Source of the DNA: a virus
Lineage: Duplodnaviria > Heunggongvirae > Uroviricota > Caudoviricetes
Virus record (IMG/VR): IMGVR_UViG_638341086_000001
Location: 1 to 28,152 of that record
Length of the DNA stretch: 28,152 bases
Direction: 5' to 3' (one strand)
Numbering within the stretch: position 1 is the stretch's first letter; each line of letters opens with the position of its first letter. The notes under the pieces were generated by a model, which saw nothing but the letters and a program-made list of their open reading frames with translations, ran no database searches and was not told the origin of the DNA. A program made the translations under genes and the position numbers. This document shows positions 1,121-5,828 of the stretch, in pieces.

Positions 1121-1174
1121 TGAACCGCCCCGGGAATCCTGGAGACTAAACTTCCTGAGAAAGAGGTAAACAGG

Positions 1175-1501
1175 ATGACTAAAAATACTCGTTTTTCCCC
1201 TGAAGTCCGTCAACGGGCAGTCCGTATGGTTCTGGAAAGTCAGGGCGAATATGACTCACAATGGGCGACAATTTGTTCCATTGCTCCAAAGATTGGCTGT
1301 ACGCCGGAGACTCTGCGTGTCTGGGTTCGCCAGCATGAGCGGGATACCGGGGGCGGTGATGGAGGGCTCACCACCGCTGAACGTCAGCGTCTGAAAGAGC
1401 TGGAGCGTGAAAATCGTGAACTGCGCCGCAGTAACGATATCCTTCGCCAGGCTTCCGCTTATTTTGCGAAGGCGGAGTTCGACCGCCTCTGGAAAAAATA
1501 A
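1175..1501 (+). CDS. IS629 OrfA (HTH transposase N-terminal protein)
   Basis: 108-aa [57 protein letters not shown]... with leucine-zipper-like C-terminus; RBS GAGGTAAACAGG upstream. Confidence 0.9.
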
Positions 1502-2388
1502 TGCCACTGCTGGATAAGCTGCGTGAGCAGTGCGGGGTCGGACCGGTATGCAGTGAACTGCATATTGCCCCGTCAACGTATTACCACTGTCAGCAACAGC
1601 GACATCATCCGGATAAACGCAGTGCCCGTGCGCAGCGCGATGACTGGCTGAAGAAAGAGATACAGCGCGTATACGATGAAAATCACAAGGTATACGGTGT
1701 GCGTAAAGTCTGGCGTCAGTTGTTACGGGAAGGTATCAGAGTGGCCAGATGCACTGTGGCACGTCTCATGGCGGTTATGGGACTTGCCGGTGTTCTCCGG
1801 GGTAAAAAGGTCCGTACGACCATCAGCCGGAAAGCCGTTGCCGCAGGCGACCGCGTAAACCGTCAGTTCGTGGCAGAACGACCTGACCAGCTGTGGGTGG
1901 CTGATTTTACTTACGTCAGCACATGGCAGGGCTTCGTCTATGTGGCGTTCATCATTGATGTGTTTGCCGGATACATTGTGGGGTGGCGGGTCTCATCGTC
2001 CATGGAGACGACATTCGTGCTGGATGCACTGGAGCAGGCGTTATGGGCCCGTCGACCGTCCGGCACGGTCCATCACAGTGATAAAGGTTCTCAGTATGTA
2101 TCGCTGGCCTACACACAGCGGCTTAAGGAAGCCGGATTACTGGCATCAACAGGAAGTACAGGCGACTCGTATGACAACGCGATGGCGGAGAGCATCAATG
2201 GTCTTTACAAAGCGGAGGTAATACACCGTAAGAGCTGGAAAAACCGTGCAGAAGTGGAACTGGCCACACTCACGTGGGTGGACTGGTATAACAATCGACG
2301 ATTGCTGGAAAGGCTGGGCCATACTCCTCCGGCAGAAGCAGAAAAAGCTTATTATGCTTCCATCGGAAACGATGATCTGGCAGCCTGA
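1501..2388 (+). CDS. IS629 OrfB (DDE transposase catalytic subunit)
   Basis: 295-aa ORF in -1 frame relative to OrfA; integrase-core DDE region ...WVADFTYVSTWQGFVYVAFIIDVFAGYIVGW...HHSDKGSQYVS...DNAMAESINGLYKAE... Confidence 0.9.
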   Translation: MPLLDKLREQCGVGPVCSELHIAPSTYYHCQQQRHHPDKRSARAQRDDWLKKEIQRVYDENHKVYGVRKVWRQLLREGIRVARCTVARLMAVMGLAGVLRGKKVRTTISRKAVAAGDRVNRQFVAERPDQLWVADFTYVSTWQGFVYVAFIIDVFAGYIVGWRVSSSMETTFVLDALEQALWARRPSGTVHHSDKGSQYVSLAYTQRLKEAGLLASTGSTGDSYDNAMAESINGLYKAEVIHRKSWKNRAEVELATLTWVDWYNNRRLLERLGHTPPAEAEKAYYASIGNDDLAA

Positions 2389-2430
2389 GTTCACAGATAA
2401 AATACTCTCCAGGAAACCCGGGGCGGTTCA

Positions 2431-2483: not shown

Positions 2484-2567
2484 TTATCCCCATCGACAAA
2501 TTGAGAACACAACAAACGCTACTGCGAATACCACCCCCAGAGTTACGATTGCATCAGGCCAGCTCAT
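2484..2567 (-). CDS. Hypothetical 27-aa hydrophobic peptide
   Basis: Strong RBS AGGAGGTG 5 nt before ATG (2567-2565); MSWPDAIVTLGVVFAVAFVVFSICRWG is a single predicted transmembrane helix; immediately downstream of the DnaN-like gene. Confidence 0.3.
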   Translation of the reverse strand: MSWPDAIVTLGVVFAVAFVVFSICRWG

Positions 2568-2602
2568 TGATTCACCTCCTGCGGCGTCCTGGTATTCGAT
2601 TT

Positions 2603-3171
2603 TCATTCCGGATGCTCCTGAGCCACATTGAAATCGCCATGATCACGACAAGGCATCACAACAAATTCAGGATTGCCATACATTGAGTTGATGATGGAAT
2701 CAAACTGAATTCTGACCGCTTGCCCGTCACCGGAGGAACGTAACTGGACGGGAATAAATTTACGCTCACGACCAAACATCTTCTCTGGATAACTCAGGTA
2801 ACCCGCCTGGATCACCGGGTGTGTACAGAGGTCAAATTTTTTCGGAATGATGCGTTCCAAATCCGGAAAACAACCGTCCACCAATTTAATGCCGGTAATG
2901 GACAGCCGGCGCTGAAACTGGTCGCGATGAACAGGATCGGCTCTTTACTAAAAATCAGCTCTGTCGTTTCGGCTTTGGCCGGGACGCCACCTTCGAACTG
3001 GACAATGATGTTTTTCTTCGTCCGGATGCCGTGAGTCATGCGCAGTGCTACGAAACCATTGGTTGCCTCAATATGTTTTGGCGTGATGTGAAGACCGTTC
3101 AGGTAATAACGAACGTCGTTTTTAGCAGCGCACACCAGAGCGGCGCGAATAAGTTTTGACTGGATGATCAT
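2603..3171 (-). CDS. DNA polymerase III beta sliding-clamp (DnaN)-like protein, truncated two-domain homolog; apparent frameshift near 2939-2941
   Basis: Start ATG 3171-3169 overlaps the upstream gene's stop (ATGA). Frame 1 gives MIIQSKLIRAALVCAAKNDVRYYLNGLHITPKHIEATNGFVALRM...; frame 2 gives ...RLSITGIKLVDGCFPDLERIIPK...NPEFVVMPCRDHG. Motifs DVRYYLNG, ATxG..L, KLVDGxFPD and VVMP occur in the same order as in E. coli DnaN (recalled from memory). The two frames join only if one nucleotide is restored in the CC at ~2939. Confidence 0.55.
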
Positions 3172-3917
3172 GCTTTATCCTCCCATCCGATTACCTGAAA
3201 AAGCCCCATCTTCGGGTGATACCAGCGTGTGCCGCGTGGTTCAGCCTCTGACATCATTTGGTGGAACGCCGCCATAAATGTCTCAAGCTCGACGACAGCC
3301 CTGCGAGACAACAGACCGTCCGGAGTCATAAATTCGTGCGTGTCGGTAGGGATGTGGTAGGCGTTGACCAGATTCCGACACTTGGCGTCACTCATTCCGC
3401 TTTTGGCTACCACCTGGCGGTAACCGACATATCCGGTGCGCATTGTGCCGCGTTTGATGTTCTCCACAGCTTTGGTGACCGTTTCGATCTTCTCTTCAAC
3501 ATGACTCAGGCGCTTCTGCTGGCGAACGGCATCGGCGGCCATTGCAGCGATCATCTCCATTTCCGTCAGCGGCGCGTGAGTTCGGAAATAGCTGTTAACC
3601 AGTTCGCGCTGAACCTGCCATGCAAGAGCATCGTTAAAAGGCTTCGTCAACATCAGGTAACCAGACTCGAAAAGAATGATCCCTTTGGCAGTTCGCGCGG
3701 CAAAGGCATCAGAAAGTGACTCCGTACGTATTACGTCCGCAGTCATTTCAAGAAAATCCACCCCTTCGATAAAGTGAGAACGGTTGCGGTTAAACGCAGC
3801 ACGGGCGGTACCTTCCGGGCGCTGGTGGACGTCATCAATTATTGCAAATGTCACAACACGCTGACCGCGATATTCGATTACCGGAAACTGTTTGTTGTTG
3901 ATGGTTACAATATTCAT
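3168..3917 (-). CDS. ORF6N-domain (KilA-N/Bro-N-like) protein, antirepressor-like
   Basis: ATG at 3917-3915 with GGAG RBS 6 nt upstream (the ORF track's longer 3992 start uses a non-ATG codon). MNIVTINNKQFPVIEYRGQRVVTFAIIDDVHQRPEGTARAAFNRNRSHFIEGVDFLEM matches the ORF6N signature; C-terminal ~130 aa unassigned. Confidence 0.55.
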   Translation of the reverse strand: MNIVTINNKQFPVIEYRGQRVVTFAIIDDVHQRPEGTARAAFNRNRSHFIEGVDFLEMTADVIRTESLSDAFAARTAKGIILFESGYLMLTKPFNDALAWQVQRELVNSYFRTHAPLTEMEMIAAMAADAVRQQKRLSHVEEKIETVTKAVENIKRGTMRTGYVGYRQVVAKSGMSDAKCRNLVNAYHIPTDTHEFMTPDGLLSRRAVVELETFMAAFHQMMSEAEPRGTRWYHPKMGLFQVIGWEDKA

Positions 3918-3960: not shown

Positions 3961-4788
3961 TTACTTAACCTGAATAAATGGTGTGTTGGCACCGCTGGTC
4001 ATGTATTGCGGCAGTGTACCGTTCCACTTGTTGATGGCTTCCAGCTCCATAACACCGGGGTTCTGGCGCAGAGCTTCACCGCGTAAACGAATAGCATCGG
4101 CTTCGGCCTGGGCTTTTGTGCGAATCGCATCTGCCTGTCCGGCAGCTTCCGCGCGCAACATGTTGGCTTCCGCTTCGCGCTGTTTTACTTCCTGCTCGCG
4201 TTGCAGGGTTTTCTGGTTCGCCGTGACTTTGGCATTAATGCTGTCGATAACAGTAGGCGGGTACTCCGGCTTACCCACATATGAGAGGCTCATTACCTGA
4301 ATACCGATGGGCGTCATTTCTTCCTGAATGTCTTTAAGAGCTGCATCCAGCAGCTCAGACTTGCCGCCGTCGATAAATTTGTCGGTGGTCATTTTGCTGG
4401 CCAGTCGGTTGAGTGCGTCGGCTATCTTCTGGCGCAGGTCGGTGTCGGTAATGTCGTCCACGCCTTTGCGGTAGGTCTGAAAGACTGTGGTAACTTTGGA
4501 TGGATCAACTTTGTAGGCCACGCCGATGTGATAGCCGATGGTTGTACCGTCACTCATCTGGAAACTGAATGGATCATCGTAGGTCTTCATCTGCTTAAAG
4601 GTCGGGAAGATGTAAACCTCAGTGTTCCATCCCGTCCAGTAGCGCCCAACACCGACCACTTCACCGACGCCTTTATCGTCGCCCAGTTTGTTTACTTTGA
4701 TGCCCACATTACCAGGCTCAACGCGATCGCAACCGACAAGGCCAATGGTCGGCAGAACAAGGGCTAAAGCAAAAAGTAATTTTTTCAT
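3961..4788 (-). CDS. SPFH/band-7 (prohibitin-like) domain lipoprotein
   Basis: 275 aa; N-terminal signal with lipobox LVGC (MKKLLFALALVLPTIGLVGC); central SPFH-like region and C-terminal coiled coil (QREQEVKQREAEANMLRAEAAGQADAIRTKAQAEADAIRLRGEAL); start overlaps the upstream small gene's stop (ATGA). Confidence 0.75.
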   Translation of the reverse strand: MKKLLFALALVLPTIGLVGCDRVEPGNVGIKVNKLGDDKGVGEVVGVGRYWTGWNTEVYIFPTFKQMKTYDDPFSFQMSDGTTIGYHIGVAYKVDPSKVTTVFQTYRKGVDDITDTDLRQKIADALNRLASKMTTDKFIDGGKSELLDAALKDIQEEMTPIGIQVMSLSYVGKPEYPPTVIDSINAKVTANQKTLQREQEVKQREAEANMLRAEAAGQADAIRTKAQAEADAIRLRGEALRQNPGVMELEAINKWNGTLPQYMTSGANTPFIQVK

Positions 4789-5033: not shown

Positions 5034-5426
5034 TCAGAATGGTTTTGTTGCCATCAGTTCGTAATATCCGGCGCTCCATGTGTCATATTTTCTGAACCAT
5101 TTTTCTGTATACTGTTTCCTGGCGATGAGTCTGCGCAGTCGTCTGATTGTTCGCTGGTGTGCGCGGGTATACTCTGTGGTTGATTCTCCACGTTTCCATA
5201 TCTCATTCCTGTTGAAGATAAAACGCTTGTCAGGATAGCGTTGTCGGAATCCTGAACGTTCAAAAGCGCGGGTGGTCATAAAGAATGCCAGGTAACGAAT
5301 TGCCGTTTTTCGGGTGAGGCATTTTTTTGTTCTTCCGTGGCGTGTTACAAAAAATAACGGGCCGACGGGTGTATCATGTTTCTGTAATGCCTGGTCAATG
5401 GTGCTGGCGGTGCGGTTGTCGATCAT
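5034..5426 (-). CDS. Hypothetical basic protein (130 aa)
   Basis: ATG 5426-5424 preceded by GGAGA and overlapping an upstream stop (ATGA); MIDNRTASTIDQALQKHDTPVGPLFFVTRHGRTKKCLTRKTAIRYLAFF...; R/K-rich, no family recognised. Confidence 0.5.
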   Translation of the reverse strand: MIDNRTASTIDQALQKHDTPVGPLFFVTRHGRTKKCLTRKTAIRYLAFFMTTRAFERSGFRQRYPDKRFIFNRNEIWKRGESTTEYTRAHQRTIRRLRRLIARKQYTEKWFRKYDTWSAGYYELMATKPF

Positions 5427-5612
5427 TTCTTTATTTCTCCCGAATAACGTTCATGACTCATTACTTCCCAGTTCCGGCCGTCGTCTTTCGATAACAGCCG
5501 CCAGCGACGGTTAACCTTCAGACTGAGATATCCGGTGCGCTGTATCCGATGCGGAAATATCCGTCGGCATCGGTACAACAACAGGACCTGCAATGCCTGC
5601 CGGTGGATCCGC

Positions 5613-5828
5613 TCAGGAATGCGTGTTGCTGTTAATGCCACCGGTTTCCTCCTGAGCAGGTGCTGTTATCTGATACCCCGCTCTTTCTGCCAGCCGTATG
5701 AATGTATCCATGCTGGCAATCAGCTCGCCATCGCGGACTTTGCAGACACCTGTGACTTGGCCATTTTCAATTGTCATAACGATCTGCACTTTTTCGTGCA
5801 CAACAGATACAGGGGATAAATTAGCCAT
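5613..5828 (-). CDS. Hypothetical protein (71 aa)
   Basis: ATG overlaps the upstream stop (TGATG); GGAGG RBS 8 nt upstream; MANLSPVSVVHEKVQIVMTIENGQVTGVCKVRDGELIASMDTFIRLAERAGYQ... Confidence 0.45.
   Translation of the reverse strand: MANLSPVSVVHEKVQIVMTIENGQVTGVCKVRDGELIASMDTFIRLAERAGYQITAPAQEETGGINSNTHS

What the first reader, a model, noticed from the sequence alone, without database searches (positions are those of the whole stretch)
2603..3917. Truncated DnaN beta-clamp homolog translationally coupled to an ORF6N-domain protein in the early-left operon
Seen: the 2603-3171 gene encodes DVRYYLNGL, ATNGFVAL, KLVDGCFPD and FVVMPCR in the order these motifs occur across domains II-III of bacterial DnaN, but the protein is only ~190 aa (about half a clamp monomer). 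Its ATG overlaps the stop of the ORF6N-domain gene (ATGA). It also needs one nucleotide restored near 2939 to be contiguous. Inference: a phage-borne clamp fragment could mimic or poison the host sliding clamp or recruit clamp-binding proteins; a clamp-derived moron in a lambdoid early operon is not something I can place in a described family.
Basis: partly seen in the sequence, partly recalled or inferred. Interest (0 to 1): 0.65.

Follow-up and report, generated by a model that had tools for sequence, protein, structure and literature searches.

The report
Frameshifted phage mini beta-clamp gene
This is a broken (one base missing) copy of a widespread phage gene for a half-size relative of the bacterial DNA sliding clamp, which keeps the clamp's partner-binding pocket but has lost the parts that close the ring, so it most likely competes for or recruits clamp-binding proteins rather than acting as a clamp.

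Summary
On the minus strand at 2603-3171 lies a DnaN-derived gene, joined by ATGA overlaps to the ORF6N gene upstream and to a 40-codon ORF downstream. It is interrupted by a 1-nt deletion between 2934 and 2935. Intact 189-aa orthologues occur in 59 of 5426 complete E. coli genomes. The broken allele recurs on about 200 contigs, so it is a real pseudogene and not a read error.

The best-conserved columns across 148 diverse family members are the residues of the clamp-binding-motif (CBM) pocket. The family is large, lies in prophages and lytic siphoviruses, and is under strong purifying selection (dN/dS about 0.08). Databases already label it, sometimes wrongly as RusA. I found no functional study.

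Best reading: a monomeric pocket-only mini-clamp that acts as a decoy or adaptor for CBM-bearing proteins, inactivated in this window. A poison subunit for host β is unlikely.

The parts
2603..3171 (-). Mini beta-clamp gene (orthologue of WP_000586690.1, 189 aa), a pseudogene here. Codons 1-79 (3171..2935) are in frame; the remainder (2934..2603) is shifted by one base.
   Evidence: homology; fold
2934..2935 (.). Site of the 1-nt deletion. The coding strand reads CCGATC^CTG instead of CCGATCGCTG.
   Evidence: the same allele occurs on 203 contigs / 287 blocks
3168..3917 (-). Upstream gene, 249 aa. It has an ORF6N domain at residues 13-92 and a C-terminal domain shared with phage 'antirepressor' PHROGs. 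It is intact.
3168..3183 (-). Coupling junction: GGAGGA (3183..3178), a 6-nt spacer, then ATGA (3171..3168), where the clamp ATG overlaps the ORF6N TGA.
   Evidence: 86 of 105 related loci have the same 4-nt overlap
2484..2606 (-). Downstream 40-codon ORF (predicted small hydrophobic protein). Its ATG overlaps the clamp stop (ATGA at 2606..2603).
   Evidence: no Pfam or PHROG hit

Best explanation
Architecture. The locus is an inactivated copy of a conserved phage accessory gene for a 'pocket-only mini-clamp'. The intact protein has about 176-189 residues in the enterobacterial clade and about 170-215 across the family. It corresponds to E. coli beta residues ~129-253 (domain II plus the II-III connector) fused directly to ~313-366 (the last beta-alpha-beta-beta-beta unit of domain III). 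This much is shown.

What is kept and lost. The protein keeps most of the residues that line the hydrophobic cleft where clamp-binding motifs (CBMs, Q-phi-x-L-F) dock. It has lost domain I and the first half of domain III, which together make the ring-closing dimer interface.

Inferred mechanism. It cannot encircle DNA or give processivity. It probably works as a soluble, probably monomeric CBM-binding module made early after induction or infection. Either (a) it titrates CBM-bearing host proteins, such as the clamp-loader delta subunit, which binds monomeric beta about 50-fold tighter than the ring. Or (b) it acts as an adaptor that brings a CBM-bearing protein to a phage complex. The direction and the target are not established.

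This window. A 1-nt deletion after codon 79 destroys the protein, so nothing functional is made from this copy.
For: Homology and fold (shown):
- Profile against PDB: E=1.8e-14 to beta clamps.
- A second model of a relative 36% identical to P0008, an enterobacterial member of the family, has pLDDT 96 and the same order of secondary-structure elements.

Which parts are kept (shown):
- The C-terminal sub-profile scores 25.9 bits on beta 316-366 but only 4.8 bits on beta 248-312.
- The IGFNxxY and VVMPxR motifs align.

Pocket conservation (shown at sequence level):
- In 148 representatives that are only about 25% identical overall, the columns equivalent to R152, G174, P242, M362, L155, Y154, T172, P363, H175, Y323 and R365 are among the 21 most conserved. 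Eight of them rank in the top 12 (the first four, L155, Y154, T172 and P363).
- Pocket columns have mean information 2.87 bits against 1.52 bits for the rest, Mann-Whitney p=1.6e-6.
- The pocket residue list, the interface residues and the statement that monomeric beta binds delta about 50-fold tighter come from PMC11139829.

Selection and spread:
- dN/dS has a median of 0.083 over 1192 pairs.
- Length is conserved in about 100 loci.
- 1049 representative clusters score E<=1e-10, and the best 150 are almost all 170-215 aa apart from about ten shorter fragments.
- 253 phage records hold a match.

Context:
- Phage Eta has no annotated DNA polymerase. Its mini-clamp sits in an operon between a ParB-like gene and a helicase, which is consistent with dealing with host replication proteins.

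Pseudogene status.
Against: - No binding data exist, and no complex could be modelled.
- Pocket residues are also the most conserved residues of DnaN in general, and the alignment is anchored on them. Part of the enrichment is therefore expected from homology alone.
- Some conserved residues (the H148-Y154 loop) also touch DNA in beta (my knowledge of the beta-DNA co-crystal work, not checked here).
- Several pocket positions differ from beta in the family or in this clade: R176->V, M364->C, N320->Q, L366->D. The His175 equivalent is H/S/F/R/Y/C/A among enterobacterial loci and F in this window. Specificity may therefore differ from that of the host clamp.
- The gene is dispensable. Fels-1 carries only a deletion remnant, and several independent frameshift alleles circulate.
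Confidence: 0.55

Rival explanations
1. Poison subunit. The fragment pairs with a host beta protomer at the dimer interface and blocks ring closure.
For: It is a true DnaN derivative expressed from an early operon. Dominant-negative fragments are a common viral strategy (general knowledge).
Against: Both halves of the interface are missing. Domain I (I78, F106, K74, R96, R103, R105) is absent because the protein starts at beta ~129. The segment holding I272, L273 and E298-E304 falls in the deleted beta 254-312 (residue list from PMC11139829).
Confidence: 0.07
2. A real processivity factor. The 1.5-domain protein (three of the twelve beta-alpha-beta-beta-beta units of a ring) oligomerises, for example as a tetramer, into a closed clamp used by a phage or host polymerase. 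This is what the database labels 'DNA polymerase III beta subunit' imply.
For: The whole chain superposes on the clamp arc at 2.6 Å. It often sits in replication modules with helicase and primase. Removing the first half of domain III leaves a sheet edge that might pair with another copy (inference).
Against: No clamp of this stoichiometry is known. The native interface residues are deleted. No clamp loader or polymerase is co-encoded in phage Eta or in this prophage arm. In lambdoid prophages it lies among accessory genes, not in the replication module.
Confidence: 0.08
3. Adaptor for its operon partner. The mini-clamp binds a motif in the protein encoded just upstream (ORF6N/Rha/Bro-N class, whose C-terminus here reads ...HPKMGLFQVIGWEDKA, resembling delta's AMSLF). 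The pair acts together on DNA.
For: A 4-nt overlap with the upstream gene occurs in 86 of 105 loci. Many upstream proteins are DNA-binding 'antirepressor-like' proteins. KMGLF fits phi-x-L-F (motif definition from PMC11139829).
Against: The upstream gene is not constant. It can be ORF6N, Rha, Bro-N, Lar, unrelated small ORFs or, in phage Eta, a ParB-like gene. Most C-termini lack L-F, for example HPEFGGFVLRK, HPAVGRFQIIK and ...YTPEDKA. The shared last ~15 codons may simply travel with the clamp's ribosome-binding site.
Confidence: 0.1
4. Nothing functional. The locus is only a decayed fragment of a dnaN gene.
For: The copy in this window is frameshifted. An IS element has landed 170 bp away. 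Other broken alleles exist.
Against: This is true for this copy only. The family has a fixed length. It shows dN/dS of about 0.08. It has thousands of members and confident compact folds. It is an evolved short protein, not debris of a 366-aa gene.
Confidence: 0.05

Closest known systems
Bacterial beta sliding clamp DnaN (E. coli, 366 aa; PDB 1MMI, 2POL and others)
   Different: Half the size. It has no domain I, no first half of domain III and no dimer-interface residues. It fails the curated thresholds (TIGR00663 19 bits against 137.65; PF02767 17.4 against 27). It cannot form the known ring.
beta*, the ~26-kDa UV-induced internal-start product of E. coli dnaN (Skaliter/Paz-Elizur/Livneh, 1996; from my own knowledge, not retrievable in the held library)
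   Same: An N-terminally truncated clamp that starts at about the same place (around residue 135, the beginning of domain II) and keeps the pocket.
   Different: beta* keeps a complete domain III and was reported to oligomerise and stimulate Pol III. The phage protein lacks half of domain III and is a separate, diverged gene family.
phrog_3007, the RefSeq 'beta clamp domain-containing protein', and phage 'DNA polymerase III beta subunit'-labelled short proteins (e.g. Serratia phage Eta gp10, Shigella phage EP23, Bas78_0042)
   Same: This is the family the gene belongs to. The intact orthologue matches phrog_3007 end to end, E=2.4e-64. The homologues are 170-215 aa long with the same predicted fold.
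   Different: The window copy is frameshifted. The PHROG label 'RusA-like Holliday junction resolvase' is contradicted by the fold. The label 'Pol III beta subunit' overstates what a ring-less protein can do.
Phage proteins that target the host clamp or loader (Twort Gp168 bound to beta, PDB 7EVP; N4 gp8 against delta, from my knowledge; Mu MuC using beta, PMC12867686)
   Same: The same battlefield: phage early or late functions that manipulate the clamp-CBM interaction network.
   Different: Those proteins bind the clamp or carry a CBM. This one imitates the clamp's receiving pocket instead.

Membership tests
Beta sliding clamp DnaN (TIGR00663; Pfam DNA_pol3_beta / _2 / _3) | Scores above the curated family thresholds | tested here: not met
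   TIGR00663 scores 19.1 bits against a cut-off of 137.65. PF02767 scores 17.4 bits against 27. There is no hit to the N-terminal or C-terminal domain models.
Beta sliding clamp DnaN (TIGR00663; Pfam DNA_pol3_beta / _2 / _3) | Three complete domains (~366 aa) that form a head-to-tail dimeric ring | tested here: not met
   The protein has 189 aa. It aligns to beta 129-253 plus 313-366 only. The interface segments are absent.
Beta sliding clamp DnaN (TIGR00663; Pfam DNA_pol3_beta / _2 / _3) | Common ancestry and fold of the clamp domain | tested here: met
Beta sliding clamp DnaN (TIGR00663; Pfam DNA_pol3_beta / _2 / _3) | Conserved residues of the clamp-binding-motif pocket (subsites I and II) | tested here: met
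   R152, Y154, L155, T172, G174, P242, M362 and P363 are kept in at least 91% of 148 representatives. H175 is kept in 89%, Y323 in 86% and R365 in 81%. Actual peptide binding is not testable here.
Phage mini-clamp family (phrog_3007 / RefSeq 'beta clamp domain-containing protein') | End-to-end match to the ~190-position family profile | tested here: met
   For the intact orthologue: E=2.4e-64, residues 2-178 on profile positions 5-188 of 190. The window DNA is 99.1% identical to it.
Phage mini-clamp family (phrog_3007 / RefSeq 'beta clamp domain-containing protein') | Intact reading frame of ~176-189 codons | tested here: not met
   The window copy has a 1-nt deletion after codon 79. Its product is 119 aa, 41 of them out of frame.
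RusA-like Holliday junction resolvase (the label carried by phrog_3007) | RusA fold or sequence similarity | tested here: not met
Known anti-phage defence systems (PADLOC) | Match to any defence-system protein model | tested here: not met
   No hit for the mini-clamp, the ORF6N protein, the SPFH protein or two neighbouring ORFs.

The most novel reading that the evidence does not exclude
Pocket-only mini-clamps are a widespread, so far uncharacterised phage device. They would be soluble mimics of the beta-clamp's peptide-binding cleft that compete with the host ring for clamp-binding motifs. Candidate targets are clamp-loader delta, Hda, translesion polymerases, MutS/L and RecBCD. The effect would be to re-route host replication and repair factors during early lytic development. 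The variable His175-equivalent residue may tune which motif is captured.
Probability: 0.35. Interest if true: 0.75.

Novelty: new variant of a known kind. Interest (0 to 1): 0.5.

Why it matters
The beta-clamp pocket is the hub through which polymerases, the clamp loader, Hda, mismatch repair and (recently reported) RecBCD are recruited. It is also an antibiotic target. A natural, compact protein of about 180 residues that keeps only this pocket would be three things:
- a new class of phage host-takeover factor, a receptor mimic rather than a clamp binder;
- a ready-made minimal scaffold for studying or screening clamp-binding motifs;
- a reason to correct hundreds of database labels ('DNA polymerase III beta subunit', 'RusA-like resolvase') that imply a function a ring-less protein cannot have.

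For this particular window the practical message is simpler. The gene is dead here, next to an IS insertion, in a decaying prophage arm.

Tried and rejected
1. Sequencing error or programmed frameshift. Rejected. The identical 119-aa product occurs on 203 contigs / 287 blocks. The site (GATC^CTG) is not slippery. The intact form is on at least 1000 contigs. Other, different lesions exist: P0041, P0047, P0050 and the Fels-1 deletion.

2. Specific functional pair with ORF6N. Rejected as a rule, because the upstream gene varies.

3. A clamp-binding motif at the C-terminus of the upstream protein (KMGLF). Only two of about seven C-terminal classes end in L-F, so this is kept only as a low-probability rival.

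4. Retention of the first half of domain III, as the first HMM alignment suggested. Rejected by scoring the two halves separately.

5. Part of a defence system. No PADLOC hit.

6. RusA-like resolvase (the PHROG label). Contradicted by the fold.

7. Diversifying selection at residue 40 within the E. coli clade. S and F mostly mark two haplotypes, so the evidence is weak.

8. Modelling a homodimer through a linker fusion. The afdb50 library was unavailable.

9. Literature searches for a described function returned nothing relevant. Terms tried: DnaN-like phage; 'beta clamp domain-containing protein'; phage-encoded clamp; ParB-like plus Pol III beta.

10. The search for related loci with the broad alignment failed because it had no conserved stretch. 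The closer alignment A3 was used instead.

Full report
**What is in the sequence**

The feature is on the minus strand. ORF listing and translation show an ATG at 3171. Seventy-nine in-frame codons follow (MIIQSKLIRAALVCAAKNDVRYYLNGLHITPKHIEATNGFVALRM...SKEPI). The frame is then lost, and the rest of the protein (…KLVDGCFPDLERIIPKK…FVVMPCRDHGDFNVAQEHPE) continues in another frame down to the stop at 2603.

A megablast against complete E. coli genomes found the same DNA in 59 of 5426 genomes. Every full-length match spans 570 (once 571) bases, at least one more than the 569-base query. In strain JNEC-KY202 the gene is annotated as a 189-aa 'beta clamp domain-containing protein', WP_000586690.1.

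The pairwise alignment shows one missing base in the window, between 2934 and 2935, and four substitutions.

The start codon overlaps the stop of the upstream 249-aa ORF6N-domain gene (ATGA, 3171..3168), and GGAGGA lies six bases upstream of the ATG. The stop overlaps the ATG of a 40-codon ORF (ATGA, 2606..2603).

**The lesion is real**

The 119-aa frameshift product of the window exists verbatim in the public assembly collection. It is in 287 index blocks and on 203 contigs, named for example 'hypothetical protein ECE128010_3974 [Escherichia coli E128010]'. The intact 189-aa sequence is on at least 1000 contigs.

Other relatives carry different lesions:
- P0041 has a frameshift in the A-run of PKKF.
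- P0047 and P0050 have frameshifts at other positions.
- Salmonella phage Fels-1 has a deletion. It joins the 5' end of its ORF6N gene to codon ~80 of the clamp gene, in a different reading frame.

The gene is thus dispensable and decays repeatedly. The copy in this window is a pseudogene, not a sequencing error or a recoding site.

**Is it really DnaN-like?**

A single sequence gives only marginal scores:
- PDB beta clamps, E=2e-3.
- TIGR00663, 19 bits against a cut-off of 137.65.
- PF02767, 17.4 bits against 27.

A profile of 32 family members gives E=1.8e-14 against E. coli beta. A profile of 148 representatives scores 82.9 bits.

A second model was built for a member 36% identical to P0008, an enterobacterial member of the family. 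It has pLDDT 96 and pTM 0.91, with the same succession of secondary-structure elements. Homology and fold are established.

**Architecture**

The first profile alignment paired the C-terminal part with beta 245-295. This was an effect of the internal pseudo-symmetry of clamp domains. With the broader profile the C-terminal 60 positions align to beta 313-365 (EIGFNxxY…VVMPMR).

Scored on its own, the C-terminal sub-profile gives 25.9 bits on beta 316-366. It gives only 4.8 bits on beta 248-312, and nothing on any other half-domain.

The protein is therefore domain II, the II-III connector and the last beta-alpha-beta-beta-beta unit of domain III. That is three of the six such units of a beta protomer.

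Two parts are missing: domain I and beta ~254-312. According to the 2024 review PMC11139829, the dimer interface is built from two sets of residues. I78, F106, K74, R96, R103 and R105 lie in domain I. I272, L273, E298, E300, E301, E303 and E304 lie in the first half of domain III. Both sets are absent.

**What is conserved**

I aligned 148 representatives that are about 25% identical on average and mapped the columns onto E. coli beta. The most conserved columns are:

| Beta residue | Conserved in |
|---|---|
| R152 | 99% |
| G174 | 99% |
| P242 | 99% |
| M362 | 97% |
| L155 | 96% |
| Y154 | 94% |
| P363 | 93% |
| T172 | 91% |
| H175 | 89% |
| Y323 | 86% |
| R365 | 81% |

Eight of the twelve most conserved columns, and eleven of the top twenty-one, are residues that line the clamp-binding-motif pocket. 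All but Y154 are in the review's subsite I and II lists. Y154 came from my own recalled list, which was the list used in the test.

Pocket columns carry 2.87 bits on average, against 1.52 bits for the others (Mann-Whitney p=1.6e-6).

There are caveats. These are also the best-conserved residues of DnaN in general, and they anchor the alignment. Part of the DVRYY loop also contacts DNA in beta (my knowledge, not checked here).

Several pocket positions have diverged: R176->V, M364->C, N320->Q in the enterobacterial clade, and L366->D. The His175 equivalent is H in 68 loci, S in 12, F in 9, R in 5, Y in 4, C in 4 and A in 1. It is F in the window.

**Family, selection and context**

The exhaustive representative search found 7327 clusters at E<=1e-3 and 1049 at E<=1e-10. 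The best 150 are almost all 170-215 aa long, apart from about ten shorter fragments.

tblastn finds the protein in 253 phage records. The hosts are Salmonella, Escherichia, Klebsiella, Vibrio, Proteus, Acinetobacter and Burkholderia phages, many of them lytic siphoviruses. The labels include 'RusA-like Holliday junction resolvase', 'DNA polymerase III beta subunit', 'DNA polymerase' and 'putative beta-clamp protein'. BFVD holds many short phage 'Pol III beta' proteins with TM 0.7-0.8 to the model.

Among 84 unique enterobacterial coding sequences the median dN/dS is 0.083. Lengths are 176-189 aa in nearly all loci.

In 86 of 105 related loci the gene overlaps its upstream neighbour by 4 nt. 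In 79 it overlaps its downstream neighbour the same way. The upstream neighbour is not constant, however. It can be ORF6N, Rha, Bro-N, Lar or unrelated proteins. In the lytic or temperate siphoviruses Bas78 and Eta, the gene follows a ParB-like gene. In Eta it precedes a helicase. Phage Eta has no annotated DNA polymerase.

There are no PADLOC hits for the gene or its neighbours.

**Interpretation**

Shown: this is a compact, selected, ring-less derivative of the beta clamp that keeps the peptide-binding cleft.

Inferred: it binds clamp-binding-motif-like peptides as a soluble module. It would be either a decoy for host proteins or an adaptor.

The decoy version has one attractive precedent in the review. 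The clamp-loader delta subunit binds a monomeric beta variant about 50-fold more tightly than the ring. A monomeric pocket could therefore be an efficient sink.

Lambdoid phages are already known to manipulate clamp supply. A lambda small RNA enhances dnaN translation (bioRxiv 10.1101/2024.10.31.621285), and Mu's MuC uses the clamp (PMC12867686).

A true processivity function would need an unprecedented oligomer and has no support, although I could not exclude it.

I found no paper describing this family's function. The closest classical analogue I know is beta*, the UV-induced internal-start product of dnaN. It starts near the same residue but keeps a full domain III. This is from my own knowledge; it is not in the held library.

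**Verdict**

The finding is real and correctly recognised as a clamp fragment. The copy here is dead. The family is already catalogued, though poorly and sometimes wrongly named. The ORF6N coupling is positional rather than specific.

The new element from this analysis is the precise architecture: domain II plus the last half of domain III. The pocket is kept and the interfaces are lost. From that follows the testable idea of a receptor-mimic mini-clamp.

I rate it a new variant of a known kind, of moderate interest.

Noticed in passing
window 1121-2430: A 1310-bp IS3-family element with 41-nt imperfect terminal inverted repeats. It has a 108-aa OrfA at 1175-1501 and a 295-aa OrfB at 1501-2388, which look like IS629/IS1203 from memory. 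It is inserted into the DUF4222 gene just downstream of the mini-clamp operon. Similarity to uninterrupted relatives resumes at 2431, so only the first ~16 codons of DUF4222 remain next to the 40-codon ORF.
   Followed up: partly
L151 (Salmonella phage Fels-1) 2696-3330: Fels-1 carries only a remnant of the gene. A deletion joins the first ~100 codons of its ORF6N gene to codon ~80 of the mini-clamp in a different frame. The remnant is annotated as two hypothetical proteins (STM0896, STM0896.2n). This suggests the gene is dispensable for this phage.
   Followed up: yes
window 3052-3054 (codon 40 of the mini-clamp); loci L011-L115: The residue equivalent to His175 of beta, which bridges the two pocket subsites, is H in 89% of the wide family. 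Among enterobacterial prophage copies it is H/S/F/R/Y/C/A. Within the near-identical 189-aa E. coli clade it is S, F or C, through changes at one nucleotide (TCC/TTC/TGC). S and F largely follow two haplotypes.
   Followed up: partly
window 5423-5641 (-), 3961-4788 (-), 7309-8001 (-): Other genes of the same leftward arm. There is a 72-aa ORF corresponding to the 'ParE family toxin-like protein' of the relative. There is a 275-aa SPFH/Band-7 lipoprotein-like gene directly upstream of the ORF6N gene. There is also a LexA-family (CI-like) repressor.
   Followed up: no
phrog_3007 and phage records H91, H93, H95, H96 and others: The PHROG that holds this family is labelled 'RusA-like Holliday junction resolvase', and the label has spread to many phage genome annotations. 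The predicted fold is a clamp, not RusA, so the label looks like an annotation error.
   Followed up: yes
cluster 2 of the protein collection: The 90%-identity cluster that contains the intact 189-aa mini-clamp has a 249-aa ORF6N protein as its representative and lists several ORF6N proteins as members. This looks like a clustering artefact, possibly from read-through or fused gene calls across the ATGA overlap. It may explain why the query's own cluster did not appear in the homologue search.
   Followed up: no
loci L011-L115, last ~15 codons of the gene upstream of the mini-clamp: Upstream genes with unrelated N-terminal domains (ORF6N, Rha, Bro-N, Lar) share a C-terminal motif, HPxxGxF(Q)(V/I/L), just before the ATGA overlap. 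This may be a shared C-terminal domain, or a mosaic joint that travels with the mini-clamp's ribosome-binding site.
   Followed up: partly
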